Of a stretch of DNA of 64,000 nucleotides, positions 20,758-36,181 are shown piece after piece. The position numbers and the translations under genes are program-made. The stretch comes from a virus (Duplodnaviria; Heunggongvirae; Uroviricota; Caudoviricetes), in the IMG/VR virus record IMGVR_UViG_3300034082_002445, positions 10,140 to 74,139 of that record; one strand, written 5' to 3'. Under the pieces are notes generated by a model. It worked only from the letters and a program-made list of their open reading frames with translations, did no database searches and was not told where the DNA came from. How positions within the stretch are numbered: the first letter of the stretch is position 1; each line of letters starts with the position of its first letter.

Positions 20758-21501
20758 ATGCCACAGATATTTAAAGTAGGAGGATGTGTAAGGGACAAGT
20801 TTCTTGGATTAGAATCCAAAGATATAGATTTTACATTTGTATTGGATGACTTATCCGGATCAGTCCAGGAAGGTTTCGCAACAATGGAAGATCATCTTAA
20901 ACAAGAAGGTTTTGAAGTGTTCTTGAGCACTCCAGACTGTTTTACTATTAGGGCTAAGTTTCCTAAAGGGCACCAATTTAGTGGCCTAGTGGCTGACTTT
21001 GTAATGGCTCGTAAAGAAGTTGGTTACATGGAAGGAACTCGTCAGCCTATTCTAGAACTTGGAACTCTGGCCGATGATTTACTTCGTCGAGATTTTACAG
21101 TCAATGCTTTAACTGAAGACATTGATGGAAACATTATTGATCTTTTTGGTGGTCAAGAGGACCTAAAACAAGGTTTGCTTAGAACACCGTTGCCTGCAAA
21201 AATGACTATGATGGATGATCCATTGAGAATCATGAGGGCTTTGAGGTTTAAAATCACTAAAGGATTTAGCATCCATGATGATATTTGGATGGCAATGATG
21301 CAACCTGAAATCTTAGAAAAATTAAGAACGACAGTTAGTGCTGAAAGAATTCGCGATGAGGTTTTCAAAATGATGAAGCATGACACTGTTGCAACTATCA
21401 AATTGCTACATTTAGTCGATGCTCAATCAATCCCAGGCTTTTTAGACTTGGTCTTTGATCGAGGCATGTGGTTAAAACCAACTTTTGAAAAGAAACAATA
21501 A
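20758..21501 (+). CDS. tRNA nucleotidyltransferase (CCA-adding enzyme, Pol-beta head domain)
   Basis: MPQIFKVGGCVRDKFLG...RRDFTVNAL...DDPLRIMRALRF; the ORF-track start at 20683 lies in the promoter cassette, so the start is moved to ATG 20758. Confidence 0.8.
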   Translation: MPQIFKVGGCVRDKFLGLESKDIDFTFVLDDLSGSVQEGFATMEDHLKQEGFEVFLSTPDCFTIRAKFPKGHQFSGLVADFVMARKEVGYMEGTRQPILELGTLADDLLRRDFTVNALTEDIDGNIIDLFGGQEDLKQGLLRTPLPAKMTMMDDPLRIMRALRFKITKGFSIHDDIWMAMMQPEILEKLRTTVSAERIRDEVFKMMKHDTVATIKLLHLVDAQSIPGFLDLVFDRGMWLKPTFEKKQ

Positions 21502-21539
21502 GATAAGTTGTTATATAATTAAATAAAAACAAGTATTAT

Positions 21540-22076
21540 ATGGCAACTACAGCACAATTAATGGCAGCTCTTGAAAAATTAACCGCAGATGGTGAGAAAT
21601 TTCCAGGCATGCCTTCAGTAAAAACTATTATTGAAAACTATATCAAAAAGAAATACCCTGAGTATGAACAATTTGATACAGCTGCTGAAAGAAAGAAATT
21701 CATCGATGACACTTATAAAGTGGTAGAACAAGAAGTTAAGATGCAAATTTATGTGGTTAAATCTACTTATGCTAATATAAAAGCTGGTATAACACAAGTA
21801 CAAGATACTATTAAAGCTACTATTGCGAGTGCTGCTATTCCTTCGGTTTTACCAAATGCGGGCGGACCTTCATTACCAAATCCTTTAAGTACATTACAAG
21901 AAGCCAGTGCAAAAGTTAATCAAATGTTGGCTATCTTAAATAACTTAGTTAATCAATTTGTTGGCTTGTTAGGAGCAGCAATCAAAATTGAATTAACAGT
22001 ACCAGATGCTGTAGTGGCTTTGATCGATATAATAGCAACACTAAGACAAGCTATTTTAGCAATCCCAAAAGTATAA
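21540..22076 (+). CDS. hypothetical protein
   Basis: ORF track. Confidence 0.45.
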   Translation: MATTAQLMAALEKLTADGEKFPGMPSVKTIIENYIKKKYPEYEQFDTAAERKKFIDDTYKVVEQEVKMQIYVVKSTYANIKAGITQVQDTIKATIASAAIPSVLPNAGGPSLPNPLSTLQEASAKVNQMLAILNNLVNQFVGLLGAAIKIELTVPDAVVALIDIIATLRQAILAIPKV

Positions 22077-22090
22077 TCAAATAAAACATA

Positions 22091-23221
22091 ATGGAAAGAA
22101 AACTAGCATCTGTACAGAGAATCGCTAGCATTAGACCAATTGAGGGTGCTGATGCTATCGAAGTGGCAAGAATCAACAACTGGGATGTTGTTGTTAAAAA
22201 GAACGAGTTTAAAGAAGGAGAACTTTGTGTTTACTTTGAAATTGATTCATTCTTACCAATCAGAGAAGAGTTTGAATTCTTACGTAAGAGCTCATTTAAA
22301 AAGATGGGTGACCAAGAAGGATTTCGCTTAAAGACTATTAGACTAAGAGGCCAAGTTTCTCAAGGTTTAGTAGTTCCTATTACTATCTTAAATGGTGATT
22401 ACATTATTGGAATCTCTCAACAACCACACGGAGATCAATTACAATTAGGACCTTATGATGATGCTTTAGTAATCGAAGAAGGTGCAGATGTAACTGAATT
22501 GTTAGGCGTAGAGAAATATGAACCACCAATTCCAGCTGAATTGTCTGGTAAAGTCAAAGGTTACTTTCCATCATTTATTCATAAAACTGATGAAGAACGA
22601 GTTCAAAACTTGGTTAAAGAATATGCACAATGGAAAGAACAAGATCTGGACTTCTATGTGACTGAGAAATTAGATGGATCTTCAGCAACTTATTACTATA
22701 ATAATGGTGTCTTTGGTGTATGTTCAAGAAACTTAGAACTAGCAGAACCTGAAGAATTTGTAGCAGGAATGGTAATGTGTGATGACGGTATCGAAAGACC
22801 ACGTCAACAAAATTCATTTTGGAAAGTAGCTCAAGAATTAGGACTCAAAGAAAAGTTAGAAGCTTATGGTCGAAATATCTCTATTCAAGGCGAATTGATT
22901 GGTGAAGGGATCCAAGGAAATCCTTACAAAATCAAGGGACAAACTGTTAGATTCTTTAATGTATTTGATATTGATACACAAGAGTACTATGGTTTACCAA
23001 TGTTCTTAGCAACTATGCAACATACTTTAAAATTGGAAACTGTACCAGTATTGGAATTTCCATGTAAGTTACCAGATACTATCGATGAATTATTGGCTTA
23101 TGCTGATGCAAAATCAGTCCTAAATCCTAATTTCGATAGAGAAGGCGTAGTTATTAGAAGTTTGGATCGTAAGATTAGTTTTAAAGCTATTTCGAATAAG
23201 TTTTTAATGAATGAAAAGTAA
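22091..23221 (+). CDS. ATP-dependent RNA ligase with N-terminal OB-fold tRNA-binding (EMAP/Myf-like) domain
   Basis: N-terminus SVQRIASIRPIEGADAIEVARINNWDVVVKK..GELCVYFEIDSFLP is tRNA-binding-domain-like; nucleotidyltransferase motif I TEKLDGSS (KxDG). Confidence 0.6.
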   Translation: MERKLASVQRIASIRPIEGADAIEVARINNWDVVVKKNEFKEGELCVYFEIDSFLPIREEFEFLRKSSFKKMGDQEGFRLKTIRLRGQVSQGLVVPITILNGDYIIGISQQPHGDQLQLGPYDDALVIEEGADVTELLGVEKYEPPIPAELSGKVKGYFPSFIHKTDEERVQNLVKEYAQWKEQDLDFYVTEKLDGSSATYYYNNGVFGVCSRNLELAEPEEFVAGMVMCDDGIERPRQQNSFWKVAQELGLKEKLEAYGRNISIQGELIGEGIQGNPYKIKGQTVRFFNVFDIDTQEYYGLPMFLATMQHTLKLETVPVLEFPCKLPDTIDELLAYADAKSVLNPNFDREGVVIRSLDRKISFKAISNKFLMNEK

Positions 23222-23547
23222 TGGATAACAGGAATATTTTAAAGGCATTGACATTTATCTTATCAGAAAGAGGCGTAGGTAAAACTGAATTGTTAAAAAG
23301 AGGTATTAGTAATTACGATCGACCTTTTATTTATGTGTGCATGAACAAAGAAGCTGGATTAGATGCATTTCATGGTAAACCAAACCCAAATGCTAAGTTG
23401 GTTGCAATAGACAGAATAGAAGAATTGATTGGCGAACACAAACCAGTTATTGTAGATCAAGAGGTTATCAGAAAGATCTGTGCAGATTCGTGGCTGTATA
23501 TGTCCAAATTAGAATTGCTTATTAAACCATCTAATATCGATATATAA
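23221..23547 (+). CDS. hypothetical protein
   Basis: ORF track. Confidence 0.4.
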   Translation: MDNRNILKALTFILSERGVGKTELLKRGISNYDRPFIYVCMNKEAGLDAFHGKPNPNAKLVAIDRIEELIGEHKPVIVDQEVIRKICADSWLYMSKLELLIKPSNIDI

Positions 23548-23566
23548 CTTAAAATAAGTTAAATCA

Positions 23567-24172
23567 ATGAAACATATTAAATTATTTGAAGATTTTTTAA
23601 ATGAAGCAACTCCTTCTGAAATTATAAAAGATTTGGATAAAGTAAGACATGACTTGATTAAAAAAGTAGATGTATTAATTGCTAAAAAGAAAAAACTTTA
23701 TTCTAATATAGATATTGAATCGCCGATGAGTGCTGATGAGAAAGAATTAGAGAAGGATATACAATCTATATTTTCACAGATCCAACAAATAATTCAACAA
23801 AAAAGAAAATTAAAAGAGTCGGTAAACGAAGCTGCAATAACATCTGATAAAATCAAACAATATTATTCTGCAATCTGTAAAGCTGAAGGCGTAGATGAAA
23901 TTCCATTGAGATTCGAATCAGTTAAATTCGGTGGTGCATCAACTACATATAATCCAAAAACAAACAAAGCACTTTACATTTCTTTCGATGTTAGTAAAAT
24001 GCACGATGCTGAATATGCTATTTTGCATGAATTAACACATCAAATAAAATTACAAACCGAAGGTGATCCATATCTTGGTAAAAAAGATCAATCTGCTAAA
24101 TTTAAGAAATTAGAGAATGCCATGATTGATAAATACATGTACTCTAGTTATTCCAATATACTTTGGAAATAA
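23567..24172 (+). CDS. CTS-family protein with an HExxH motif (putative zinc metallopeptidase)
   Basis: N-terminus MKHIKLFEDFLNEA; AILHELTHQ contains HExxH. Confidence 0.55.
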   Translation: MKHIKLFEDFLNEATPSEIIKDLDKVRHDLIKKVDVLIAKKKKLYSNIDIESPMSADEKELEKDIQSIFSQIQQIIQQKRKLKESVNEAAITSDKIKQYYSAICKAEGVDEIPLRFESVKFGGASTTYNPKTNKALYISFDVSKMHDAEYAILHELTHQIKLQTEGDPYLGKKDQSAKFKKLENAMIDKYMYSSYSNILWK

Positions 24173-24192
24173 AAAATTATAAAAATAAATTG

Positions 24193-24795
24193 ATGAAAAA
24201 TATTAGACTATTCGAACAATTTGTTAAGGATCTAGTCGAGAAAAAGGGCGACACATACAATTCAAGTTGTGCTATGTTGTACTTTGACTTTCCACAACTT
24301 GCAGAAATTCATTCCAAAATAGACGAAGAAGATCTTTACACCGAAGAAGAGGACAGAACATTTGGTTTAGAAGATGAACCGCATTGTACATTACTTTATG
24401 GTTTAGAAAACACAGTTACTCCAGATCAAATCGAACAAATAGTTAAGGGTATCAAATTTGGTAAGCTTAGACTTTACAATATGTCACTATTTGAAAATGG
24501 TAAGTATGATGTTTTAAAGTTTGATGTAGGCTATACTGATAAGAAATCTTCATTCTTGCATGATTGTAACGAAGAATTGACTAAGTTACCGTATAAGAGT
24601 GATTTCCCAGATTATCATCCTCACATGACAGTAGCATACTTAAAACCAGGAATGGGAGACAAATATACAATGGCATTTAAAAACGAAGAGCATGAGGTTT
24701 ATCCTAATCACATCATTTTTAGTGAGCCAGATAATACCAAGACTCAAATTGCAATTGATACGCTTTTGCCACCAGACAAAGCCAGAATGGATTAA
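24193..24795 (+). CDS. CTS-family protein with a 2H phosphoesterase fold (LigT / Acb1-like)
   Basis: N-terminus MKNIRLFEQFVKDL; two H-x-T-x motifs, PHCTLLYGL and HPHMTVAYL. Confidence 0.6.
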   Translation: MKNIRLFEQFVKDLVEKKGDTYNSSCAMLYFDFPQLAEIHSKIDEEDLYTEEEDRTFGLEDEPHCTLLYGLENTVTPDQIEQIVKGIKFGKLRLYNMSLFENGKYDVLKFDVGYTDKKSSFLHDCNEELTKLPYKSDFPDYHPHMTVAYLKPGMGDKYTMAFKNEEHEVYPNHIIFSEPDNTKTQIAIDTLLPPDKARMD

Positions 24796-24798
24796 TTC

Positions 24799-24900
24799 AA
24801 ATTGTTCGTAACTTTATTAGATCCAGGTGAATTTATTTTCATCTGGATTTTTTTATGTCAAAAACTTTTTGTATATTTACAGTATAATCAAACAAACAAC
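24799..24900 (+). promoter_or_regulatory. Intergenic cassette (TTGTTCGTAACTTT, hairpin, promoter boxes)
   Basis: Hairpin atccaggtgaatttattttcatctggat: G-C to A-T compensatory change relative to the copy at 20678. Confidence 0.6.
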
Positions 24901-25080
24901 ATGTATAAAGAAGAATTAAAAGCAGAAGCAATCAGAATTATCAAAGCAAATCCTGAACTTAAATCAGAAATACAAGAATTGTATTCGTTAGCCCTTTCAG
25001 AGATTGAAGAAGGTGGATCAGAATCACATGAATGTGATTTAGCTTATAATGATATGTTAGAACTTGAAAGAGAAGCATAA
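24901..25080 (+). CDS. small hypothetical acidic protein (59 aa)
   Basis: MYKEELKAEAIRIIKANPELKSEIQELYS...; the ORF-track start at 24802 lies in the cassette, so the start is moved to 24901. Confidence 0.45.
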   Translation: MYKEELKAEAIRIIKANPELKSEIQELYSLALSEIEEGGSESHECDLAYNDMLELEREA

Positions 25081-25724
25081 TGATAAACAACTTAGATGTA
25101 ATCAAACCATTATTAAACTTCGAAAAGAAGGGTGACTTTTACATGCTTTATGTTTTTAAGCGTAAAAAGGACCAACCTGAAGCCGAACGAGACAATCATC
25201 AATCAGTAAGAACTATTAAGTCTTATTGTATTGAAAGTATTGATCATTTAGAACGTAGATGGGATGAGATCAAACAATTGTGTGAGATGTTTAAAGCTCG
25301 TGCTTATATTCATGTTCAAAAACAAAATCACTTTGATGTTAGTTTAAACATGATGGTTGCACTTGCTCAGAGAATTCAAGATGGTAACACAAATCAAAAA
25401 GGTTTGTTTGATTCAGTTGTTGGTCAGATCAAGACTCAAGAAAAACGTTGGATTGTTGACATTGATACCAAAGATGAGTCATTTAATAGAGAAATTCAAT
25501 TATTCATTAATACTCAGTGTCTGCCATTTGGAATGAAGATTATTGCTAATATTCCAACTAAAAATGGGGTTCATTTAATCACTGAACGCTTTGATGTTAA
25601 GACTTTTAGTGAAAAGTATCCAGAGATTGACATCCAAAAGAAGAATCCAACCCTATTATATTACCCAAACAGTTTAGACTATGAAGAAGACATTAATGCT
25701 TTTGTTAATATTAGCGTTTACTAG
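25080..25724 (+). CDS. hypothetical protein
   Basis: ORF track; ATGA overlap with the upstream gene. Confidence 0.45.
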   Translation: MINNLDVIKPLLNFEKKGDFYMLYVFKRKKDQPEAERDNHQSVRTIKSYCIESIDHLERRWDEIKQLCEMFKARAYIHVQKQNHFDVSLNMMVALAQRIQDGNTNQKGLFDSVVGQIKTQEKRWIVDIDTKDESFNREIQLFINTQCLPFGMKIIANIPTKNGVHLITERFDVKTFSEKYPEIDIQKKNPTLLYYPNSLDYEEDINAFVNISVY

Positions 25725-25872
25725 TTGCGAAAAGGATCAGATTATTGTACCAAAGCAAATAGCAACTGAAACAAGCATCAAAGAAACAAAGAAGCCCAAG
25801 AAAAAACTTGGGTTTTTTAAACGATTGAAGGCCAGAAGGTTAGCAAAAAAAGCTAAAAATGTTCGCAAGTAA
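25681..25872 (+). CDS. Small putative lipoprotein
   Basis: MKKTLMLLLILAFTSC lipobox-like signal, basic C-terminus; overlaps the previous ORF by 44 nt. Confidence 0.35.
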   Translation: MKKTLMLLLILAFTSCEKDQIIVPKQIATETSIKETKKPKKKLGFFKRLKARRLAKKAKNVRK

Positions 25873-25928
25873 ATTTTTTTATGTCAAAACTTATTAGTAT
25901 ATTAGCTCTATAATTAAAAGATAAAGAT
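25860..25928 (+). promoter_or_regulatory. Promoter cassette (TTTTTATGTCAAA...TATATTAGCTCTATAATTAAAAG)
   Basis: Matches the cassette consensus. Confidence 0.5.
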
Positions 25929-26132
25929 ATGGAAAATACATTAGAACAAACCAAAAAATACTACTTCCAAGGAATTAGATGGGTACCAGGATATGACGAT
26001 TTTGACTTTGATGATTGCGAAGTTGATGCAGTTGATGAGAAATCAGCATGGGATAAATTATTCCAATTTACAAAAAAATGGACGTGGAAGAGAGTAAGTT
26101 TAACACACATTGATAACATTAAAATAGTTTAA
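25929..26132 (+). CDS. hypothetical protein
   Basis: ORF track. Confidence 0.4.
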   Translation: MENTLEQTKKYYFQGIRWVPGYDDFDFDDCEVDAVDEKSAWDKLFQFTKKWTWKRVSLTHIDNIKIV

Positions 26133-26133
26133 G

Positions 26134-26775
26134 ATGAAAATAACTTTAGAAAAAGGACAAAGGGTTTTCTTTACTAGTGATACTCATTATAATCACGCTA
26201 ACATCTGTAAAGCTACTTCACAGTGGCCAGATAGTTCAAGTGTGCGTGACTATAATTCATTGTACCACATGAATGCTGTCTTAATTGATAGCATTAACCA
26301 AATTGTTCGTGAAGACGATATTTTATTTCACTTAGGTGATTGGTCTTTTGGTGGTTTTGATTCTATTGCAGAATTTAGAAACCAACTTAACTGTAAGAAT
26401 GTTCACTTGATTTTGGGTAACCATGACCATCATATTGAAAATGACAAAGAAGGTATCAGATCATTATTTGCATCTGTTAACCACTACTTGTTTTTGACTT
26501 TGGTTCAGCAATCTGATAACAAGCACATCAAACATCGTTTTGTTTTGTGTCACTTTCCTATTGCAAGTTGGAATGGAATGGGTGATGGTGTTATACATTT
26601 ACATGGCCACGTCCATTTGCCTGAACACTCTAGGGTTGCTAAAGGTCGAGCAATGGACGTGGGTGTAGATGGAAACGATTTAAACCCGAACAGTTTAGAA
26701 GAGGTCTTAGATCTTTTAAAAGATCGACCTCAGTGTGCATTGAGTTTACCTAAAGATCATCACGAAAACATATAA
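26134..26775 (+). CDS. Calcineurin-like metallophosphoesterase; candidate 3'-phosphatase / 2',3'-cyclic phosphodiesterase half of a Pnkp-type end-healing enzyme
   Basis: SDTHYNH, LGDWSFGG, GNHDHH, GHVHLPEH metal-ligand motifs; immediately upstream of a P-loop polynucleotide kinase. Confidence 0.65.
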   Translation: MKITLEKGQRVFFTSDTHYNHANICKATSQWPDSSSVRDYNSLYHMNAVLIDSINQIVREDDILFHLGDWSFGGFDSIAEFRNQLNCKNVHLILGNHDHHIENDKEGIRSLFASVNHYLFLTLVQQSDNKHIKHRFVLCHFPIASWNGMGDGVIHLHGHVHLPEHSRVAKGRAMDVGVDGNDLNPNSLEEVLDLLKDRPQCALSLPKDHHENI

Positions 26776-26785: not shown

Positions 26786-27199
26786 ATGACAAAAAAATTA
26801 TACATCGTACGCGGAGTGCCAGGATCTGGCAAATCAACATTGGCCTTAAACTTGGTTGGCTCAGACTTTTTAGTTTGTGAAGCTGATAAGTATTTTATGG
26901 TTGATGGCGAATACAAATTTGATGCTTCTAAATTAAAAGACGCACATGAATCTTGTCGAGCTTTAGTAGAAACCTACATGAAAGATTCATTAATGAATGA
27001 CCAATTCTATCGAGAAATTGCAGTTTCAAATACATTCACACAAGAGTGGGAAATGCAACCTTATTTTGATTTAGCTAAACAATATGGCTATATGGTCTTT
27101 AGCATTATTGTCGAGAATAGACATGGTGGATCCAATCAACACGGTGTGCCAGCTGAAGCTATTCAAAGAATGAAAGATCGTTTTAACGTTAAATTATAA
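26786..27199 (+). CDS. P-loop polynucleotide kinase-like protein (candidate 5'-OH kinase)
   Basis: Walker A IVRGVPGSGKSTLA; small AAA_33/Pnk-like size; adjacent to the metallophosphoesterase. Confidence 0.6.
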   Translation: MTKKLYIVRGVPGSGKSTLALNLVGSDFLVCEADKYFMVDGEYKFDASKLKDAHESCRALVETYMKDSLMNDQFYREIAVSNTFTQEWEMQPYFDLAKQYGYMVFSIIVENRHGGSNQHGVPAEAIQRMKDRFNVKL

Positions 27200-29712: not shown

Positions 29713-30060
29713 ATGACAAAGACACAAGCCCTTAAGTTAGTAGAAATTACTAGTCAACGTCAAGCTGACAATGGTACAGTTTGTTATTTTGATCCAATCG
29801 CTAAATGTACTTATATGAGTTACGAATCTGGTTATGTTCGTCGAGCATACCAAACCAGAAATTGGCGAGGACATCTAATCACGACCATTTATCAAGTCAA
29901 TAAAACTCGTCAAGCAAAAAGAGTTTCTGATTGGTCAGGTTGTGAATACTTTCAAACTGAAAGAATCTTGGTTCCATCTCACGAAGATCGTTTAGATCTG
30001 ATCTGTCGTGCAGCTGTTAATTATCGTCAAACTCTTAGAAAATACACAAAAAATGCTTAA
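29713..30060 (+). CDS. hypothetical protein
   Basis: ORF track. Confidence 0.45.
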   Translation: MTKTQALKLVEITSQRQADNGTVCYFDPIAKCTYMSYESGYVRRAYQTRNWRGHLITTIYQVNKTRQAKRVSDWSGCEYFQTERILVPSHEDRLDLICRAAVNYRQTLRKYTKNA

Positions 30061-31348
30061 AAACCTTCAAAACTTTGTTAACGAGTCAAACTCGTCAAAC
30101 TCAAATACAGATAAGTTGAACGTGCTGAAAAAATATGCACATGATGCAGAAATCTGTAAAATACTCGAGTATACATATAATACTTTTAAGCAATATTATG
30201 TTACTTCTAAAAACTGTCAAAACCGCAGCGACTTGGTCGCTCCAGAAAATATGTATAGCAGCCTTTTTGGGCTTTTGGATGATCTCAGTGATCGTAATCT
30301 CACTGGCCACTCCGCTATTCAAGCAGTCAATGCGTTTGTTGGCGCACATCGTGAATCCGAGGACCTAATCTGGAACATCTTAGATCGTAATCTTAAGACA
30401 AGATCGACTGCCTCTATGATTAACACTGCCATTCCTGAGCTTATTCCAACTTTTGATGTTGCATTAGCACAAGCTTATGATGAAAAAACAGCCAAGAAAG
30501 TCAACTTCAAAGATGGTTGGTATATGAGCCGTAAATTAGATGGTGTACGTTGTATTGCCATTCTAAGAAAAAACGGAGATGTTAACTTTTATTCTCGAGT
30601 TGGTAATGAATTTGAAACTCTTGGCAATCTTAAACTAGAACTTACTCGTTTGGCCCAAGACATCGTTCTTGACGGTGAAATCTGTATGGTTGATGAGAAT
30701 GGCAAAGAGGATTTTCAAGGTATTATCAAAGAGATCAAACGTAAAAATCACACTATCAAACGTCCTAAATTCTTGGTCTTTGACGCATTGACTCATACTG
30801 AATTTATTGAGAAAATGTCAGGTCGTAAATTCTCTGCTCGTCAAGAATATCTGCAAGGTTGGTTTGAAAACTACAATTCAGAATTAGTTTTGACAGAGAA
30901 ACTTGAGCAGATCAGAATCGAGAACGAAGAACAAATGAATGCCTTTATTGCTGAAGGAACCAAAGAAGGTTGGGAAGGTATTATGCTTCGCAAAGATACT
31001 TTCTATCGAGGTAAACGTACAGCTGATGTCTTAAAAGTTAAACAATTCCATGATGCAGAATACACTGTCGTTGATATTCAAAATGGTCCATTCAGAGTTA
31101 TTGTTGATGGCAAAGAAGTCGAAGAAGATGTAATGCGCCATGTGGTTGTCGAGCACAAAGGTTATCGAGTTGATGTTGGATCTGGATTTAGTCTTGAACA
31201 ACGTAGACTTTATAAAGCAAATCCAAATGCTATTCTTGGTAAACAAATCACAGTTCAATACTTTGAAGAATCTTTTAATCAGCATGGTGGCATTAGCTTA
31301 AGATTCCCAACAGTAAAGGCTGTTTATGAAACAGAACGTAATTTTTAA
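30053..31348 (+). CDS. ATP-dependent DNA ligase
   Basis: Motif I SRKLDGVRC (KxDGxR), motif IV EGIMLRK, motif V LKVKQF; the ORF-track start at 30008 is probably too early (ATG 30053 overlaps the upstream stop as ATGCTTAA). Confidence 0.75.
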   Translation: MLKNLQNFVNESNSSNSNTDKLNVLKKYAHDAEICKILEYTYNTFKQYYVTSKNCQNRSDLVAPENMYSSLFGLLDDLSDRNLTGHSAIQAVNAFVGAHRESEDLIWNILDRNLKTRSTASMINTAIPELIPTFDVALAQAYDEKTAKKVNFKDGWYMSRKLDGVRCIAILRKNGDVNFYSRVGNEFETLGNLKLELTRLAQDIVLDGEICMVDENGKEDFQGIIKEIKRKNHTIKRPKFLVFDALTHTEFIEKMSGRKFSARQEYLQGWFENYNSELVLTEKLEQIRIENEEQMNAFIAEGTKEGWEGIMLRKDTFYRGKRTADVLKVKQFHDAEYTVVDIQNGPFRVIVDGKEVEEDVMRHVVVEHKGYRVDVGSGFSLEQRRLYKANPNAILGKQITVQYFEESFNQHGGISLRFPTVKAVYETERNF

Positions 31349-31359
31349 ATATAACTAAC

Positions 31360-31581
31360 ATGAAAGAAAAACTAAAAGGATTCCTTAACTTTTTTAACAC
31401 GTACATACTATGGTTTGGTATGGGTGTAGCGACAATATTCGCATTAGATCTAGCAAATTTTTTAATGACATATCCAAATGATATTGCATTCTTCGCTGGA
31501 CTCTTTATTTACACAACCAGTATCGGTGCAATAGGATACTCAGTTTACACAGTAATTACAAACAATCAAAATAAAAAATAA
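31360..31581 (+). CDS. small two-transmembrane membrane protein
   Basis: ORF track; two hydrophobic helices. Confidence 0.45.
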   Translation: MKEKLKGFLNFFNTYILWFGMGVATIFALDLANFLMTYPNDIAFFAGLFIYTTSIGAIGYSVYTVITNNQNKK

Positions 31582-31583
31582 AA

Positions 31584-32429
31584 ATGAAAATTAAAGCAAT
31601 CGTAGTATTATCAGCATTGATCTTTGGATCAATCTTCTTATTTAATTCATGTGAGCGTATTGACGCAGGACATGTAGGTGTAAAAGTTAACATGTATGGA
31701 TCTGGCAAAGGTGTCGGTGATGTAACAGAGTGCACAGGCTGGGTTTTTTATAATCCATTGACAACAAAAATTTATGAGTTTCCAACTTTCATGCAACACA
31801 AAGAGTACAAGAAATTTGAAGAAATTGACAACTCATTTATCGTAAACTCTAAAGATGGATCTGAGTTTCATGTTTCGCCAATTATTAACTATTCAGTTGA
31901 ACGCGAGAAAGTACCTTTTATCTTTTCAAAATATCGTAGAGAATTAGGTGATATTGAAGAAGGATTCTTAAAGACAACTATTTATGATGCTTTTAGAATG
32001 ACAGCCAATGCTTACACAGCCGAAGAACTAATCTCAAATCGTCAAATCTTTGAAACAAAAGTAAGATCTACATTGGACGCTAATTTATTAAAAGAAGGTT
32101 TTGTTATCAGTCAATTGACTTCAAACTTAATCTATCCTGAAACATTTAAACGTGCAATTGAGGCCAAGAACAATGCAGTCCAAACAGCATTAACAGCTGA
32201 AAACCAAGTTAAAACAGCCGAAGCTCAAGCCAAAATCAAAGTGGCAACAGCAACTGGTAATGCAGAAGCTATGTTAACTGCCGCTAAAGCCGAAGCTGAA
32301 GCTAACCGAATGAAGCAAGTAACTTTGACTCCACTATTATTACAACTTGAGTGGATCAACAAATGGAACGGACAATTGCCTAGTACGATGTTAGGTGACA
32401 AATCAAACACTATGTTTGGTATCAAATAA
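31584..32429 (+). CDS. SPFH / band-7 (prohibitin-like) domain protein with N-terminal membrane anchor
   Basis: Signal/anchor then IDAGHVGVKVNMYG (typical SPFH start), A/E-rich coiled coil at the C-terminus. Confidence 0.6.
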   Translation: MKIKAIVVLSALIFGSIFLFNSCERIDAGHVGVKVNMYGSGKGVGDVTECTGWVFYNPLTTKIYEFPTFMQHKEYKKFEEIDNSFIVNSKDGSEFHVSPIINYSVEREKVPFIFSKYRRELGDIEEGFLKTTIYDAFRMTANAYTAEELISNRQIFETKVRSTLDANLLKEGFVISQLTSNLIYPETFKRAIEAKNNAVQTALTAENQVKTAEAQAKIKVATATGNAEAMLTAAKAEAEANRMKQVTLTPLLLQLEWINKWNGQLPSTMLGDKSNTMFGIK

Positions 32430-33723: not shown

Positions 33724-33805
33724 ATTGTTCGTAACTTTTAGATAAAAAGCTTTCCTATATCAAAAGAATTTAGTATATTTACAGTATAACTTAAAAACAA
33801 AAACA
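33724..33805 (+). promoter_or_regulatory. Cassette copy (ATTGTTCGTAACTTTTAG ... TAGTATATTTACAGTATAACTTAAAAAC)
   Basis: Matches the cassette consensus. Confidence 0.5.
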
Positions 33806-34135
33806 ATGACAAAATCAATTATTTTTTTAGTAGTAGCACTTATCGTTGGGGGTATTGCATTTGAGATCTCATCTTATGGTCATGTAAGTACAATTGAAGC
33901 CAAAGTTGAAGGTAAAGAACGAATTACTGAATCTGTTGGAAATAACATTGAATCTTATTATTTGGTCTATACAGACAAAGGAACTTTTAAGCTTGAAGAT
34001 GACATGTTTAGAGGTAATTTCTACTCTAGTGATGTTTATGGGAAACTTAAACAAGATTCTACATATAAGTTTAAAACAGCAGGTTACCGAATTGGTTTCA
34101 TGAGTTCATACCCTAACATTATCGAAGTAAAATAA
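33806..34135 (+). CDS. hypothetical membrane-anchored protein
   Basis: ORF track. Confidence 0.45.
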   Translation: MTKSIIFLVVALIVGGIAFEISSYGHVSTIEAKVEGKERITESVGNNIESYYLVYTDKGTFKLEDDMFRGNFYSSDVYGKLKQDSTYKFKTAGYRIGFMSSYPNIIEVK

Positions 34136-34136
34136 T

Positions 34137-34391
34137 ATGAGAGACGCGGCAAAATATGTGATTATAGATGGTTGTGCAATCATCTTCTCACCTGCAATCC
34201 AACACAAAGACATGGTTGGTTACAATGAAAAAGCAACTGGAGCTGGCTTTGTAAGATTTTCAACAGAAGTTGATAGTTGGGGAGAAACAATTATCAAAGC
34301 AAATGCTTATGGTACTTCGATCTCATTAGGAGTTTCTTCTCAAGAAGGTGACTCAGAAATTTTAACTCGTCAAATCACTAATACTTATTAA
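34137..34391 (+). CDS. hypothetical protein
   Basis: ORF track. Confidence 0.4.
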   Translation: MRDAAKYVIIDGCAIIFSPAIQHKDMVGYNEKATGAGFVRFSTEVDSWGETIIKANAYGTSISLGVSSQEGDSEILTRQITNTY

Positions 34392-34392
34392 T

Positions 34393-34782
34393 ATGCAAAA
34401 GAATTATTTCCAACTAGATCTAGTACACTCGATCACATTAACACATGAACGCGAAACTGGTTACGAATGGTACGATGAAATACCTGCAAAACCAAAAACA
34501 TTCTTAGGAATTCAATATGGTATGACTAAAGCTATTCCAGCTGGTTGGTCAGATTATGAAGGTGGCAGATGGCCGGTACCAACGAGTTCCTTTGATGGCT
34601 ATAAATGGTATCGAGTTGACGAAGCCAATAAGAAAATTTACAACAAAGCGCATGTAGATATTCGATTCAGCTACAAAGAAGGTATTGGACACAACTTTAA
34701 TTCAAATGAAGCGGCTCAAAAATGGGTCGATGAACTAATATTATCTTCAGACAAAAAATTTACAGTAATCATAAACAAATAA
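34393..34782 (+). CDS. hypothetical protein
   Basis: ORF track. Confidence 0.45.
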   Translation: MQKNYFQLDLVHSITLTHERETGYEWYDEIPAKPKTFLGIQYGMTKAIPAGWSDYEGGRWPVPTSSFDGYKWYRVDEANKKIYNKAHVDIRFSYKEGIGHNFNSNEAAQKWVDELILSSDKKFTVIINK

Positions 34783-35068
34783 GATGAAACATTTTGCAGT
34801 ATCACTAGTCTTTATAGCTTTCTTCTCTTTGATTGGAGCAGTATGCTATCTTACACAATCAGCGTGGCCCATGTGGGGTCTTTTATTAACACCATCTTGG
34901 TCTTCAAAATCTAATGACGAAGACAATGAGTAAGATTATTTATATGGAACAAACCCTGGCGTTAATTGCCCGACATGATCCAATACGAGTAGAAGAAATT
35001 ATCAAGTCTGGAAAGATTTTACAGACTGAATCAGGAATCAAATACGTTTTAATACAAGAATAAAACAA

Positions 35069-36181
35069 ATGAACAAAGTAACATTAGATAAGTATGTAGA
35101 AGCAGGTTGGTTGATTCGTCAGTCACACCCTACTTTGCCATTGTCAATCTACAATTACTCTCAATCTACACAGTATGAGAAGCATTGGGATGATATTACT
35201 TTGTCTTGTCGTGGAGTTATTACTGATGATGAAAATGGCAAGATTATCGTTAAGCCATTTCCAAAGTTCTTTAACTATGAAGAATTGCCAGCAACTATGA
35301 TTCCATGGTCAAACTCTGACTATGTTTATGTTCAAGAAAAAATGGATGGATCCTTGGGTATTTTATTTAACTATAAGAATGAGTGGATCTTATCAACTCG
35401 TGGATCTTTTACATCAGATCAGGCCATTCGAGGCTTAGAGATCTTAAAGGCCAAATACATCTTAGATGCTTTTGAACCTTCTGTTGCCTATTTATGTGAG
35501 ATTATTTACCCAGAAAATAGAATTGTGGTTGATTATGGCAAAGAAAAGATTACATTTTTAGGTGCAGCCATTAATCGATCTTGGAATTGGAAAGAAGGTG
35601 GAGACGATGAATTACATTGGACTACAGCACAGGCCTATTTTAAAATGTCAGGTATTAAAAAGTCTGATATTGTTAAAACTACTCAAGTCTTTGATTTGGG
35701 TCCAGAATTATACTCAACTTTAAAAGCTTTGAACAAAGCCAACGAAGAAGGTTACGTCTTACGTTTCTTTCCTTCTAACTTAAGGGTCAAAATCAAATTC
35801 GAGGATTACTGTACTTTGCACCGAATCTTAACTAATGTTTCTTCATACGATATTTGGGAAAACTTAATGAAATTTGGTAAATTGCCAGAGCAAATGCTTA
35901 ATGATGTACCAGATGAATTTTATGATTGGGTTCATGCAACTCAAGCCAAAATCACGGCAGATTTTAAACAAGTAATGCACTATCATTTGGCAGTTTGTTC
36001 TTCGATCTTAAGAGATGGTATGATGACTCAAAAAGAATTTGCTGAACAAGTTTTAGCTTTGAGTGATGTTAATCATGGTATCATTTTTGGCATTGCAAAT
36101 GGCAAAGATGTGAGCGAAAAGGCCTGGAAAATGGTTAAGCCAGAATATAGTAAGCCTTTTTCAAATGTCGTTGATATATAA
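35069..36181 (+). CDS. T4 RnlA-like RNA ligase 1 (tRNA-repair ligase)
   Basis: N-terminal SIYNYSQ..CRGVI..KFFNYEE and motif I QEKMDGSLGILF parallel T4 Rnl1 SYNYAS..CRGIMF..KFFNLNE..KEDGSLVSTY. Confidence 0.75.
   Translation: MNKVTLDKYVEAGWLIRQSHPTLPLSIYNYSQSTQYEKHWDDITLSCRGVITDDENGKIIVKPFPKFFNYEELPATMIPWSNSDYVYVQEKMDGSLGILFNYKNEWILSTRGSFTSDQAIRGLEILKAKYILDAFEPSVAYLCEIIYPENRIVVDYGKEKITFLGAAINRSWNWKEGGDDELHWTTAQAYFKMSGIKKSDIVKTTQVFDLGPELYSTLKALNKANEEGYVLRFFPSNLRVKIKFEDYCTLHRILTNVSSYDIWENLMKFGKLPEQMLNDVPDEFYDWVHATQAKITADFKQVMHYHLAVCSSILRDGMMTQKEFAEQVLALSDVNHGIIFGIANGKDVSEKAWKMVKPEYSKPFSNVVDI

What the first reader, a model, noticed from the sequence alone, without database searches (positions are those of the whole stretch)
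20758..36181. Dispersed RNA repair and tRNA maintenance toolkit
Alongside a tRNA array of more than 25 genes, the window encodes six RNA-repair functions. (1) A T4 Rnl1-like ligase at 35069, with the SYNYS / CRG / KFFN / K-x-DGSL motifs. (2) A second RNA ligase with an N-terminal EMAP-like tRNA-binding OB domain at 22091. (3) A polynucleotide kinase split into adjacent metallophosphoesterase (26134) and P-loop kinase (26786) genes, instead of T4's fused kinase-HAD Pnk. (4) A separate HAD phosphatase at 46514. (5) A CCA-adding enzyme at 20758. (6) A DEDDh exonuclease at 40335. Most tRNAs here do not encode CCA. Together this is the full toolkit to heal and seal tRNAs cut by host anticodon nucleases (PrrC/RloC-type). 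The split-Pnk architecture is unusual.
Basis: partly seen in the sequence, partly recalled or inferred. Interest (0 to 1): 0.72.

Follow-up and report, generated by a model that had tools for sequence, protein, structure and literature searches.

The report
Phage RNA repair gene toolkit
An uncultured large phage carries 24 tRNA genes, two RNA ligases, RNA-end-healing enzymes, a short CCA-adding enzyme and a Ro-like protein followed by a conserved non-coding RNA; toolkits of this kind are already known in big phages, so only the RNA and one co-travelling protein look new.

Summary
All six ORFs exist at the stated coordinates. Four are well supported: a T4 Rnl1-type ligase, an Rnl5 (NgrRnl-type) ligase, a short class II CCA-adding enzyme, and a metallophosphoesterase plus P-loop kinase pair. 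The HAD phosphatase and DEDDh exonuclease are real domains but nothing links them to RNA repair. There are 24 tRNAs, not more than 25, and 17 lack encoded CCA.

The "unusual split Pnk" claim fails. The same metallophosphoesterase, Rnl1 and kinase trio lies within about 2.5 kb in 7 of 7 sampled cultured phages from seven genera. Relatives of the kinase are fused to Rnl1, HD or apparently 2H domains, which supports a 5'-OH polynucleotide kinase role.

- a 2H phosphoesterase;
- a Ro60-like DUF2828 protein;
- a roughly 320-nt structured RNA downstream of it, conserved in 55 of 80 related loci, with covariation and no Rfam match;
- a 214-aa protein, possibly primase-polymerase-like, that travels with the toolkit.

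Verdict: a real heal-and-seal and tRNA-maintenance toolkit, and a new member of a kind already surveyed in jumbo phages. Function is inferred from homology and gene context only. The host and its nuclease are unknown.

The parts
407..11623 (+). tRNA array: 22 tRNAs at 407-5252, plus tRNA-Thr at 10488-10561 and tRNA-Gly at 11548-11623. All 20 amino acids are covered. Seven encode CCA and 17 do not.
   Evidence: ARAGORN; Rfam tRNA model finds 24; 3' ends read directly
20758..21501 (+). Short (247 aa) class II tRNA nucleotidyltransferase (CCA-adding type). It has the head and neck only, with no body or tail domain.
   Evidence: Pfam PolyA_pol 1.6e-18 and phrog_24229 3e-60. PDB CCA and poly(A) enzymes score 1e-28 to 1e-9 and align only to their N-terminal ~220 aa. 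Motifs GGCVRD/DID, RRD, DDPLR and ERIRDE are present. The start at 20758 agrees with metagenome gene calls.
22091..23221 (+). Rnl5-family (NgrRnl/DraRnl-type) nick-sealing RNA ligase, with an N-terminal OB domain and a C-terminal nucleotidyltransferase domain
   Evidence: PDB 5COT 1.7e-69; Pfam PF21189 2e-42 plus PF09414 1e-23. All nine residues mutated in NgrRnl (R4, D53, K121, R149, K170, D172, E227, E312, K326; PMC7261155) are conserved in the alignment.
24193..24795 (+). 2H phosphoesterase. It is a candidate RNA 2',3'-cyclic phosphodiesterase, or alternatively an Acb1-like enzyme. It is the last gene of the CCA/Rnl5 transcription unit.
   Evidence: Two HxT motifs, HCTL and HMTV, 80 aa apart. 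All profile hits are weak: 2_5_RNA_ligase2 9e-6, Acb1 3e-5, TIGR02258 1e-5, phrog_755 4e-9.
25080..25724 (+). Conserved 214-aa protein of unknown function (phrog_14949). In relatives it sits beside the Ro-like gene, the CCA enzyme, the metallophosphoesterase-kinase pair or the DNA ligase. It may have a primase-polymerase (AEP)-like fold.
26134..26775 (+). Metallophosphoesterase, the candidate RNA 3'-end (2',3'-cyclic, 3'- or 2'-phosphate) healing enzyme
   Evidence: Pfam Metallophos 7e-7 and phrog_547 2e-46; PDB 1XM7 9e-6. All metallophosphoesterase motifs are present: DTH, GDW, GNHD, H, GHVH. It lies next to the kinase and Rnl1 in 7 of 7 sampled phages.
26786..27199 (+). 137-aa P-loop kinase (AAA_33), the candidate 5'-OH polynucleotide kinase
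   Evidence: Pfam 8e-10, phrog_2071 2e-39, phrog_505 'polynucleotide kinase' 8e-7. Contains GVPGSGKST, D34 and NRHG. Homologues are fused to Rnl1 (P0363), to HD domains (P0262, P0288) and to a domain that looks 2H-like by its motifs (P0321). It is adjacent to Rnl1 in L007.
35069..36181 (+). Rnl1-family (T4 gp63-type) RNA ligase
   Evidence: Residues aligned to the T4 residues R54, K75, F77, K99, G102, E159, E227, G228, K240 and K242 are R48, K66, F68, K91, G94, E144, E227, G228, K241 and K243.
36791..38221 (+). Ro60-like RNA-binding protein (DUF2828 + DUF7788): an all-helical N-terminal part followed by a vWA domain with a DVSGS MIDAS motif
   Evidence: Pfam; phrog_850 'RNA-binding protein' 6e-157. 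33-35% identical over 97% of its length to mycobacteriophage proteins annotated 'Ro-like RNA binding protein'. The only Foldseek PDB hits with E<1e-3 are Ro60/TROVE structures 9KOP, 2NVO and 9L5Y, but the model is poor (pLDDT 57.7).
38236..38554 (+). Conserved structured non-coding RNA of about 320 nt, immediately downstream of the Ro-like gene. P1 pairs 38237-44 with 38290-97. Long-range P2 pairs 38300-05 with 38544-49. P3 to P7 lie inside. An invariant GCCGAAG sits at 38494-38500.
   Evidence: No ORF of 40 aa or more. nhmmer finds it in 55 of 80 Ro-like loci, always downstream on the same strand. RNAalifold predicts 31 pairs. 98.4% of cells are paired, and 13 pairs show double changes against 1-2 in slid controls, with 0 of 500 shuffles reaching this. 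There is no Rfam match and no match in cultured phages.
38561..38585 (+). Hairpin plus T-run (AAAAGCCACTTCGGTGGCTTTTTTT), the likely terminator that ends the Ro-like gene and RNA unit
   Evidence: Sequence read directly. Relatives have equivalent hairpins with different sequences.
30053..32429 (+). ATP-dependent DNA ligase (30053-31348), a small ORF, and an SPFH/Band-7 protein (31584-32429). These are peripheral genes that also neighbour the cassette in cultured phages.
   Evidence: Pfam. DNA ligase lies near the cassette in L001, L091, L092 and L093, and an SPFH homologue (35% identity) lies in L091.
40359..41036 (+). DEDDh 3'-5' exonuclease. No link to the toolkit was found.
   Evidence: Motifs by inspection. 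Profile hits are weak. Seven phage records hold homologues, with generic annotation.
46514..47104 (+). HAD-superfamily phosphatase. No link to the toolkit was found.
   Evidence: DxDxT motif. Profile hits are weak. There is no PDB sequence hit and only one phage record.

Best explanation
The window comes from an abundant, uncultured large phage; related contigs reach 234-256 kb. It carries a multi-operon RNA heal-and-seal and tRNA-maintenance toolkit beside a tRNA set that covers all 20 amino acids.

Inferred mechanism. Host or competitor ribonucleases cut tRNA or other translation RNAs and leave 2',3'-cyclic-phosphate and 5'-OH ends. The 26134 metallophosphoesterase, possibly helped by the 24193 2H phosphodiesterase, would convert the 3' end to a hydroxyl. 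The 26786 kinase would phosphorylate the 5'-OH. The Rnl1-type ligase (35069) would seal breaks in single-stranded loops. The Rnl5-type ligase (22091) would seal nicks in duplex stems. The short CCA-adding enzyme (20758) would build or restore the 3' CCA, which 17 of the 24 phage tRNAs lack. A Ro60-like protein (36791) and the conserved ~320-nt RNA next to it probably form an RNP that handles damaged or misfolded RNA, by analogy with Ro60 and Y RNA.

Shown here: the domain identities, the conserved catalytic residues, the gene linkage and fusions, and the conservation and covariation of the RNA. Inferred: every enzymatic activity, the substrates, the protein-RNA binding and the anti-defence purpose.
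For: Ligases. Rnl1 and Rnl5 both keep every catalytic residue checked (PMC7261155).

Kinase. Relatives are fused to a full-length Rnl1 (P0363, 39% identical to the window's Rnl1; Pfam PF09511). Others are fused to HD domains (P0262, P0288), which is the architecture of the characterised end-healing enzyme HD-Pnk (PMC6097658). One relative (P0321) carries an N-terminal part that looks 2H-like by its HxT motifs; Pfam did not call that domain. In the related 253-kb contig L007 the kinase directly abuts Rnl1. There, Rnl5 is followed by HAD_SAK_2 and cREC_REC, two families that comparative-genomics work assigns to RNA repair (PMC7824862).

Metallophosphoesterase. Homologues of it and of the kinase flank an Rnl1-like ligase within about 2.5 kb in 7 of 7 sampled cultured phages. 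These are Aeromonas 2L372X, Vibrio Ceto, Salmonella PVP-SE1, Pseudomonas phiK7A1 and K8, Acinetobacter Liucustia, and the Phapecoctavirus B15.

Shuffled neighbourhoods in relatives. Three arrangements recur: Ro-like gene, RNA, CCA enzyme, x25080; Ro-like gene, RNA, x25080, metallophosphoesterase, kinase; and Rnl1 next to the Ro-like gene.

Operons. Terminators at 20674, 24819, 27980, 32450 and 36705 place the genes in a few transcription units.

tRNAs. 17 of 24 lack encoded CCA.

RNA. It is conserved in 55 of 80 loci and shows covariation.

Literature. The same combination is described as the standard RNA-repair complement of jumbo phages: tRNAs, ATP-dependent RNA ligases, Pnk, phosphoesterases, 2H, CCA-adding enzyme and ROT/TROVE (PMC7824862).
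Against: No activity was measured; everything rests on homology and context.

The kinase gave no PDB sequence match. It lacks the Arg of the D-x-x-R motif that I recall from T4 and Clostridium Pnk.

The metallophosphoesterase's nearest solved relative is an uncharacterised Aquifex protein (1XM7), not Pnkp or lambda phosphatase. No fusion of this kinase to a metallophosphoesterase was seen among the top 150 representatives.

An ATP-dependent DNA ligase is also a frequent neighbour, and HD-Pnk heals DNA as well as RNA ends. The substrate could therefore be DNA.

The 2H enzyme scores as well against anti-CBASS Acb1 as against RNA cyclic phosphodiesterases. It also carries an N-terminal leader shared with six unrelated ORFs.

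The CCA enzyme lacks the body and tail domains that bind tRNA.

T4 Rnl1 has a second, structural role in tail-fibre attachment.

The Ro-like fold rests on a low-confidence model (pLDDT 57.7; TM 0.29-0.35).

The host and any anticodon nuclease are unknown.
Confidence: 0.62

Rival explanations
1. The kinase and metallophosphoesterase heal DNA ends. They would turn 3'-phosphate and 5'-OH nicks, made by host nucleases or arising during replication, into ligatable ends for the neighbouring ATP-dependent DNA ligase. The RNA ligases would be co-located but serve other purposes, such as tail-fibre attachment for Rnl1 or sealing of RNA-DNA hybrid nicks for Rnl5.
For: An ATP-dependent DNA ligase lies 3 kb downstream in the window. 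One also lies within a few kb of the cassette in Aeromonas 2L372X, PVP-SE1, phiK7A1 and K8. HD-Pnk is described as a DNA/RNA end-healing enzyme (PMC6097658). T4 Pnk also acts on DNA (own knowledge). PHROGs names the Rnl1 family 'RNA ligase and tail fiber protein attachment catalyst'.
Against: The kinase family is fused to Rnl1-type RNA ligases, not to DNA ligases, among the top 150 representatives. In 7 of 7 sampled phages the gene between or beside the kinase and the metallophosphoesterase is the RNA ligase. The cassette also travels with a CCA enzyme, a Ro-like protein and tRNAs.
Confidence: 0.15
2. The phosphoesterases are anti-signalling enzymes, not RNA-end healers. Under this reading the 2H enzyme (24193), the MPPED2-like enzyme (38632) and perhaps the 26134 metallophosphoesterase destroy cyclic-nucleotide or cyclic-oligonucleotide immune messengers of CBASS, Pycsar or type III CRISPR systems. 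The rest would be ordinary tRNA maturation for the phage's own tRNAs.
For: The 2H protein hits Pfam Acb1 (3e-5) about as well as the 2'-5' RNA ligase family. It shares an N-terminal leader, MK[HN][IV]xLFExF, with six other ORFs, which may mark proteins packaged in the virion and injected (interpretation from memory of T4 internal proteins). 38632-39345 matches the cyclic-nucleotide phosphodiesterase-like MPPED2 at 4e-39. Jumbo-phage 2H and calcineurin-like enzymes have been proposed for exactly this role (PMC7824862).
Against: The 26134 family is tightly linked to Rnl1 and the kinase across seven phage genera. The kinase has no role in signal degradation. A relative fuses a domain that looks 2H-like by its motifs to this kinase (P0321), the arrangement used for RNA end healing in fungal and plant tRNA ligases.
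Confidence: 0.15
3. The genes are an uncoordinated collection. Large phages accumulate many nucleic-acid enzymes, and their presence in one 16-kb stretch does not reflect a pathway.
For: The genes are spread over at least four predicted transcription units and are interleaved with unrelated genes: a SprT-like protein, a LamG protein and small ORFs. The HAD protein and the exonuclease indeed show no linkage.
Against: Adjacency recurs in unrelated phages. The kinase is fused to Rnl1. Different subsets of the same genes are re-joined in relatives.
Confidence: 0.05

Closest known systems
T4 Pnk + Rnl1 tRNA repair pathway, the countermeasure to the PrrC anticodon nuclease
   Same: It has an Rnl1-family ligase with every aligned catalytic residue conserved. 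It has a P-loop 5'-kinase candidate that hits the PHROG family named polynucleotide kinase. The heal-then-seal logic is the same.
   Different: In T4 the 3'-phosphatase is a HAD domain fused to the kinase. Here the kinase is a standalone 137-aa protein, and the linked phosphoesterase is a separate metallophosphoesterase. A second ligase (Rnl5), a CCA enzyme and a Ro-like RNP are also present. The host nuclease is unknown.
Metallophosphoesterase, RNA ligase 1 and kinase ('ATPase' or 'polynucleotide kinase') cassette of cultured phages: rV5/PVP-SE1-like, Pakpunavirus, Saclayvirus, Cetovirus, Plateaulakevirus, Phapecoctavirus
   Same: The three protein families are the same. Metallophosphoesterases are 26-34% identical and kinases 36-51% identical, and the genes lie within about 2.5 kb. 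An ATP-dependent DNA ligase is a frequent neighbour, and an SPFH homologue lies near the cassette in PVP-SE1.
   Different: In the window the metallophosphoesterase and kinase are adjacent, but Rnl1 sits 8 kb away in another transcription unit. The cultured phages' Rnl1-like ligases are shorter (about 300 aa). As far as my searches showed, the cassette has only been annotated, not studied biochemically.
Bacterial Pnkp/Hen1 (Clostridium thermocellum) and Runella HD-Pnk end-healing enzymes
   Same: They combine a 5'-OH kinase, a 2',3'-phosphoesterase and a ligase. Relatives of the window's kinase have the HD + kinase architecture (P0262, P0288; PMC6097658).
   Different: Pnkp is a single polypeptide with a lambda-phosphatase-type domain, an Rnl4 ligase and a Hen1 partner. 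Here the genes are separate, the metallophosphoesterase has a different nearest relative (1XM7), the ligases are Rnl1 and Rnl5, and the window has no HD domain. Hen1 was not searched for.
Rnl5 nick-sealing RNA ligases (Naegleria NgrRnl, Deinococcus DraRnl)
   Same: The match runs full length at 1.7e-69. The OB + nucleotidyltransferase architecture is the same and all nine studied active-site residues are conserved (PMC7261155).
   Different: This is a phage copy with a ~30-aa insertion in the linker between the two domains (query 98-128). The physiological substrate is unknown for the whole family (PMC5397189).
Ro60/Rsr with Y RNA (YrlA) RNPs, including phage versions in mycobacteriophages and Thermus phage phiLo
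   Same: The protein has helical-repeat and vWA/MIDAS parts. It is 33-35% identical to proteins annotated 'Ro-like' in mycobacteriophages, and its top fold hits are Ro60 structures. A structured RNA is encoded next to the gene, with a long-range closing stem and an invariant GCCGAAG that fits the YrlA motif GNCGAAN0-1G (PMC4201824, PMC12135203).
   Different: Pfam files the protein under DUF2828/DUF7788, not TROVE. The RNA is about three times longer than YrlA. It has no detectable tRNA-like domain and no Rfam Y_RNA or YrlA match at E<=5. It lies downstream of the gene, not upstream. Binding is untested.
RNA-repair complement of jumbo phages (Iyer et al. 2021, PMC7824862; Burroughs & Aravind 2016, recalled from memory because the paper is not in the library)
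   Same: The inventory is the same: many tRNAs, Rnl-type ligases, Pnk, calcineurin-like, HAD and 2H phosphoesterases, a CCA-adding enzyme and a ROT/TROVE protein.
   Different: No RlaP nucleotidyltransferase, RtcB, Thg1 or peptidyl-tRNA hydrolase was found among the ORFs scanned. The survey names Rnl1 and Rnl2 as the main phage ligase families, whereas this phage has an Rnl5-type ligase.

Membership tests
Rnl1 (T4 RNA ligase 1) family | Nucleotidyltransferase motifs with the catalytic lysine (KxDG), plus the Rnl1-specific residues R54, K75, F77, E159, E227, G228, K240 and K242 | tested here: met
   The phmmer alignment to 2C5U aligns K91 (EKMDG) with T4 K99. It also aligns R48, K66, F68, E144, E227, G228, K241 and K243 with the T4 residues. 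Pfam PF09511 scores 61.5 bits against a cut-off of 28.3.
Rnl1 (T4 RNA ligase 1) family | C-terminal all-helical domain that confers tRNA specificity | tested here: inconclusive
   phrog_562 aligns residues 14-364. The pairwise alignment to T4 Rnl1 stops at residue 252.
Rnl5 (NgrRnl/DraRnl) family | N-terminal OB module plus C-terminal nucleotidyltransferase domain, with the nine active-site residues studied in NgrRnl | tested here: met
   PF21189 143.9 bits and PF09414 84.7 bits; 5COT 1.7e-69 over both domains. R3, the D of EIDS, the K of VEKYEPP, the R of EERV, K193/D195 of KLDGSS, the E of QGEL, the E of DREG and the K of SFKAISN are all conserved (PMC7261155).
T4-type bifunctional Pnk (kinase fused to HAD phosphatase) | Kinase and HAD 3'-phosphatase in one polypeptide | tested here: not met
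   The kinase is 137 aa with no second domain. The only HAD gene lies 19 kb away and has no phage relatives apart from one metagenomic record.
5'-OH polynucleotide kinase (P-loop, Pnk clade) | Walker A GxxGxGK[ST], a nearby catalytic Asp, a lid Arg, and functional linkage to end-healing or ligase modules | tested here: met
   GVPGSGKST(10-18), D34 and R112 are present. phrog_505 'polynucleotide kinase' gives 8e-7. Relatives are fused to Rnl1 and HD domains, and to a domain that looks 2H-like by its motifs. The Arg of the D-x-x-R motif is absent, there is no PDB sequence hit, and no activity was tested.
Bacterial Pnkp (kinase, metallophosphoesterase and ligase) with Hen1 | Three domains in one protein, a lambda-phosphatase-type phosphoesterase and a Hen1 methyltransferase partner | tested here: not met
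   The genes are separate. The metallophosphoesterase's only PDB sequence relative at E<=0.01 is 1XM7. Hen1 was not searched for specifically.
Class II CCA-adding enzyme | Head-domain motifs A to E (GGxVRD...DxD, RRD, [ED]DxxR, ERxxxE) | tested here: met
   GGCVRD(8), DID(22-24), RRD(110), DDPLR(153) and ERIRDE(196) are present. Pfam head domain scores 67.7 bits against a cut-off of 23.
Class II CCA-adding enzyme | Body and tail domains that bind the tRNA elbow (total length about 370-420 aa) | tested here: not met
   The protein is 247 aa. It aligns to residues 84-289 of a 580-aa enzyme and to 35-258 of a 502-aa enzyme. The PHROG family of the same short type is 245 positions long.
Ro60 / TROVE proteins | HEAT-like helical ring plus a vWA domain with a MIDAS motif | tested here: inconclusive
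   Predicted secondary structure is all-alpha for 1-254 and alpha/beta for 266-420, with DVSGS at 271. The four best Foldseek PDB hits are Ro60/TROVE at E 1.5e-7 to 1.6e-5, but TM is 0.29-0.35 and pLDDT 57.7. The profile search of PDB sequences gives only E 0.8 to the same entries. Pfam gives DUF2828/DUF7788, not TROVE. Homologues in mycobacteriophages are annotated Ro-like.
Y RNA / YrlA | Match to the Rfam Y_RNA or YrlA covariance model, and a tRNA-like domain | tested here: not met
   There is no Rfam hit in 38222-38600 at E<=5. ARAGORN finds no tRNA-like element there.
Y RNA / YrlA | Encoded next to the Ro gene, a closing stem formed by distant 5' and 3' segments, and a conserved GNCGAA(N)G motif | tested here: met
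   The RNA lies directly downstream in 55 of 80 loci. P2 (GGAUCG with CGAUCC, 244 nt apart) has compensatory changes in 9 sequences. GCCGAAG at 38494 lies in a highly conserved block. A single 7-mer is not significant on its own: the window holds 18 against 9 expected.
2H phosphoesterase superfamily | Two H-x-[TS]-x motifs about 80 residues apart | tested here: met
   HCTL at 64 and HMTV at 144 of the 200-aa protein. Profile scores are just below the curated cut-offs: 26.2 against 27 and 25.5 against 65.7. The subfamily (RNA cyclic phosphodiesterase or Acb1) is unresolved.
DEDDh exonucleases (RNase T / DnaQ-like) | ExoI DxE, ExoII NxxxFD and ExoIII Hx4D motifs | tested here: met
   DIET, NFASFD and HNAVED are seen by inspection. 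Pfam scores 20.4 bits, below the cut-off of 24, and aligns the N-terminus only. RNA versus DNA specificity was not testable.

The most novel reading that the evidence does not exclude
The ~320-nt RNA at 38236-38554 may be a new, large class of Y-RNA-like partner for DUF2828-type Ro-like proteins. The resulting RNP would act as the scaffold or substrate selector of the phage tRNA-repair machinery: Rnl1, kinase, metallophosphoesterase, short CCA enzyme and the possibly primase-polymerase-like 25080 protein. This could explain how a CCA enzyme without body and tail domains and a minimal 137-aa kinase find their substrates.
Probability: 0.25. Interest if true: 0.7.

Novelty: new member of a known kind. 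Interest (0 to 1): 0.45.

Why it matters
Phage RNA repair has been shown experimentally almost only for T4 Pnk and Rnl1 against PrrC. This locus belongs to a phage lineage that is abundant in metagenomes: the kinase sequence alone is indexed in 64 blocks of the assembly collection. The lineage shows that the three-gene cassette of metallophosphoesterase, Rnl1-type ligase and small kinase is widespread but apparently uncharacterised, and that it travels with an Rnl5 ligase, a minimal CCA-adding enzyme and a Ro-like RNP.

If the activities are confirmed, the result would give a second, non-T4 model for tRNA healing and sealing. It would provide a set of very small enzymes for RNA end manipulation. 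It would also give a tractable pair for asking what phage Ro-like proteins do: the DUF2828 protein and its conserved structured RNA. The finding as written, however, largely restates a toolkit already catalogued for jumbo phages.

Tried and rejected
- Megablast of 20 kb against 50,697 phage records found nothing. The phage has no close cultured relative. The best protein-level relatives are Flavobacterium phage immuto (metallophosphoesterase 62%, MPPED2-like 56%) and Cellulophaga phages. Immuto lacks the kinase next to its metallophosphoesterase.
- PDB sequence searches found nothing useful for the kinase, the HAD protein or the 2H protein. NCBIfam added only a weak 2',3'-cyclic phosphodiesterase hit.
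- A profile of 33 Ro-like proteins against PDB sequences was not significant. The allowed alignment was shallow (87% identity or more) and gave a poor model.
- The single-sequence fold energy of the RNA is not better than shuffles (z = +0.87). The case for structure rests on covariation.
A model of the 3' domain (R1) found the RNA in L061-L063 but not in the 60-62% identity clade L066-L089. That clade still has ORF-free gaps of about 170-1100 nt after the gene.
- The afdb50 fold library was unavailable.
- Burroughs & Aravind 2016 is not in the paper library, so it is cited from memory only.
- I rejected the 'EMAP-like tRNA-binding' label for the OB domain. I also rejected the HAD protein and the DEDDh exonuclease as toolkit members, for lack of any linkage.
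- I considered whether 38632-39345 rather than 26134 is the healing phosphoesterase. It is MPPED2-like and does not travel with the kinase except in immuto-like context, so I kept 26134.
- Pfam scans of ten ORFs in 2382-16734 found no further tRNA or RNA-repair enzymes.

Full report
**What the window is.** The window has 34.6% G+C, and almost all genes are on the + strand. It has no nucleotide-level match among 50,697 deposited phage genomes. Its proteins are abundant in metagenomes. The exact kinase sequence is indexed in 64 blocks of the assembly collection. Close homologues sit on viral contigs of 234-256 kb. The nearest cultured relatives, at the level of single proteins, are Flavobacterium phage vB_FspM_immuto and Cellulophaga phages. 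I therefore treat it as part of an uncultured large or jumbo phage, probably of a Bacteroidota host. The host assignment is inference only.

**Checking the observation.**
- *tRNAs.* ARAGORN and the Rfam tRNA model both find 24 tRNA genes: 22 at 407-5252, then 10488 and 11548. The count is not "more than 25". They cover all 20 amino acids. Reading the 3' ends shows that 7 encode CCA and 17 do not.
- *Rnl1-like gene (35069-36181).* It passes Pfam's threshold and matches T4 Rnl1 structures. Every residue aligned to the T4 set recalled as essential is conserved: R48, K66, F68, K91, G94, E144, E227, G228, K241 and K243.
- *Second ligase (22091-23221).* It is a strong full-length homologue of Naegleria gruberi RNA ligase (5COT, 1.7e-69), so it belongs to the Rnl5 family. 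All nine active-site residues studied in NgrRnl are conserved (PMC7261155). Its N-terminal OB domain is the Pfam PHA02142 module. In NgrRnl this module contacts the ATP gamma-phosphate and promotes adenylylation. The "EMAP-like tRNA-binding" label is unsupported.
It has motifs A to E of class II nucleotidyltransferases. At 247 aa it has only the head and neck, and lacks the body and tail domains.
- *26134 and 26786.* 26134 is a metallophosphoesterase with all metal-binding motifs. 26786 is a 137-aa AAA_33 P-loop kinase.
- *HAD protein (46514) and DEDDh exonuclease (40359).* Both have the right motifs, but their profile scores are below threshold and they have almost no phage relatives.

**Is the metallophosphoesterase-kinase pair a polynucleotide kinase-phosphatase, and is it unusual?** The kinase family is large: 8,666 cluster representatives at E<=1e-3. 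Most members are standalone proteins of 130-150 aa.

Among the top 150 representatives I found three kinds of fusion:
- fusion to a full-length Rnl1-type ligase (P0363, 39% identical to the window's Rnl1), and to ligase-like N-termini (P0313, P0387);
- fusion to HD phosphohydrolase domains (P0262 and P0288 by Pfam; six more by the HDxGK motif);
- fusion to a domain that looks 2H-like by its HxT motifs (P0321).

HD + kinase is the architecture of Runella HD-Pnk, a characterised 2',3'-phosphoesterase and 5'-OH kinase (PMC6097658).

In a 253-kb relative (L007) the kinase directly abuts Rnl1. There the Rnl5 gene is followed by HAD_SAK_2 and cREC_REC genes. Comparative-genomics work assigns both families to RNA repair (PMC7824862).

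I then sampled seven cultured phages from seven genera that carry the kinase:
- Aeromonas 2L372X
- Vibrio Ceto
- Salmonella PVP-SE1
- Pseudomonas phiK7A1
- Pseudomonas K8
- Acinetobacter Liucustia
- the Phapecoctavirus record B15

In all seven, a homologue of the 26134 metallophosphoesterase (26-34% identity) and the kinase (36-51%) flank an Rnl1-like RNA ligase within about 2.5 kb. Some depositors already call the kinase "polynucleotide kinase".

Two conclusions follow. The functional reading is well supported by context: a 5'-kinase plus a 3'-phosphoesterase serving an RNA ligase. The claim that the split arrangement is unusual is wrong, because it is a common phage cassette. I found no paper that characterises it biochemically. 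No metallophosphoesterase-kinase fusion appeared among the top 150 representatives. The metallophosphoesterase's nearest solved relative is an uncharacterised Aquifex protein (1XM7), not Pnkp or lambda phosphatase.

- *A 2H phosphoesterase (24193-24795).* It has two HxT motifs and weak hits both to RNA 2',3'-cyclic phosphodiesterases and to anti-CBASS Acb1. It ends the transcription unit that begins with the CCA enzyme and Rnl5.
- *A Ro-like protein (36791-38221).* It lies one small gene downstream of Rnl1 and is a DUF2828/DUF7788 protein. PHROGs calls the family "RNA-binding protein" (6e-157). It is 33-35% identical over its whole length to mycobacteriophage proteins annotated "Ro-like RNA binding protein". 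A low-confidence AlphaFold model (pLDDT 57.7) still retrieved only Ro60/TROVE structures at E<1e-3: Thermus phage phiLo Ro60 and Deinococcus Rsr.
- *A non-coding RNA.* The 410-nt gap after that gene has no ORF of 40 aa or more.
  - It is conserved directly downstream, on the same strand, in 55 of 80 related viral loci.
  - A 27-sequence alignment supports seven helices, including a long-range stem (GGAUCG at 38300-05 pairing with CGAUCC at 38544-49).
  - 98.4% of cells are paired. Thirteen pairs show changes on both sides, against 1-2 when the partner is slid, and 0 of 500 shuffles reach this level.
  - G-U pairs fit the + strand.
  - A hairpin plus T-run at 38561-38585 follows it.
  - There is no Rfam match and no match in cultured phages.
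  - Phage Ro60 proteins with adjacent Y-like RNAs are known (PMC4201824, PMC12135203). This RNA shares the closing stem and an invariant GCCGAAG that fits the YrlA motif. It is about three times longer and has no tRNA-like domain.

**Organisation.** Hairpin terminators at 20674, 24819, 27980, 32450 and 36705, and a repeated promoter-like cassette, divide the region into four units:
1. CCA enzyme, x178, Rnl5, x108, a SprT-like protein and the 2H enzyme (20758-24795).
2. A small ORF, x25080, small ORFs, the metallophosphoesterase, the kinase, x137 and x114 (24901-27961).
3. Small ORFs, Rnl1 and x156 (33806-36685).
4. The Ro-like gene and the RNA (36791 to about 38585).

In relatives these blocks are re-joined in different orders. 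Conserved linkage despite rearrangement is what a functional partnership predicts.

**Most likely mechanism.** The order of events below is inferred. Only identities and linkage are shown.
- RNase-cut tRNAs or other RNAs with 2',3'-cyclic phosphate and 5'-OH ends are healed at the 3' end by the metallophosphoesterase, possibly after ring opening by the 2H enzyme.
- The kinase phosphorylates the 5' end.
- Rnl1 then seals breaks in loops, and Rnl5 seals nicks in duplex regions.
- The short CCA enzyme completes or restores 3' ends, which 17 of the 24 phage tRNAs need.
- The Ro-like RNP probably selects or holds damaged RNAs.

This matches the toolkit described for jumbo phages (PMC7824862).

**Rivals.**
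- The end-healing enzymes may serve DNA repair, because an ATP-dependent DNA ligase is a frequent neighbour.
- The 2H and MPPED2-like enzymes may destroy cyclic-nucleotide immune signals.
- The association may be looser than it appears.

Fusion of the kinase to Rnl1, and the 7-of-7 adjacency, argue against the first and third rivals for the core trio. The second remains open for the 2H enzyme. That enzyme also shares an N-terminal decapeptide with six other ORFs.

**Verdict.** The locus is a new member of a known kind of phage system. The fresher items are the Ro-like protein's structured RNA and the 25080 protein.

Noticed in passing
window 38236-38554 (terminator 38561-38585); L010-L065: A conserved ~320-nt structured RNA lies directly downstream of the Ro-like DUF2828 gene. 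It has seven helices with covariation. It has no Rfam match and no match in cultured phages.
   Followed up: yes
window 23567, 24193, 36215, 44123, 44545, 45014, 45471 (ORF starts, + strand): Seven otherwise unrelated ORFs begin with the same decapeptide, MK[HN][IV][KRQ]LFE[DAQ]F[LIV]. From memory of T4 internal proteins, this looks like a capsid-targeting or propeptide leader cut after L-x-E. If so, these proteins, including the 2H phosphoesterase, may be packaged and injected.
   Followed up: no
window 19745-19838, 20658-20757, 24796-24900, 27962-28060, 33725-33805, 43386, 46427: A repeated intergenic cassette has three parts: TTGTTCGTAAC (9 copies against 1.1 expected), a G+C hairpin with a T-run, and TATGTCAAA...GTATATTTACAGTATAAT. 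It looks like a terminator plus a phage promoter with an upstream conserved box.
   Followed up: partly
window 38632-39345: A second metallophosphoesterase is a close homologue of vertebrate MPPED2 (PDB 3RL4, 4e-39), a cyclic-nucleotide phosphodiesterase-like enzyme. It is a possible anti-signalling enzyme. Flavobacterium phage immuto has a homologue at 56% identity.
   Followed up: partly
[not shown]
   Followed up: partly
window 23567-24172: A 201-aa protein has a coiled-coil-like N-terminal half. By eye, its C-terminal half has a SprT-like zinc-protease signature (...YAILHELTHQ...). No profile hit supports this.
   Followed up: no
L090-L094 (Vibrio Ceto, PVP-SE1, phiK7A1, K8, Liucustia): In cultured phages the RNA-ligase, kinase and phosphoesterase cassette sits next to a ribose-phosphate pyrophosphokinase gene. 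In four of the five a nicotinamide phosphoribosyltransferase gene (NAD+ salvage) is annotated there too, and PVP-SE1 also has a Sir2-like gene. The window itself shows no such genes among the ORFs scanned.
   Followed up: no
L014, L015, L017, L023, L034, L038, L047, L064 and others, ~390 nt after the Ro-like stop codon: In many relatives about 390 nt is inserted between the Ro-like gene and the conserved RNA. I did not examine what the insert contains.
   Followed up: no
L066-L089: The more distant Ro-like clade (60-62% identity) lacks a detectable copy of the RNA. It still has ORF-free gaps of about 170-1100 nt downstream of the gene, which may hold a different RNA.
   Followed up: partly
window 54914-57772: A 952-aa protein carries long collagen triple-helix repeats (Pfam Collagen, 2.9e-69). 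It is probably a fibre or structural protein.
   Followed up: no
window 31584-32429; L091 11048-11878: An SPFH/Band-7 protein lies after the ATP-dependent DNA ligase. A 35%-identical homologue lies about 5 kb from the cassette in Salmonella phage PVP-SE1. From memory, SPFH modules have been proposed as RNA-repair cofactors (Burroughs & Aravind 2016).
   Followed up: no
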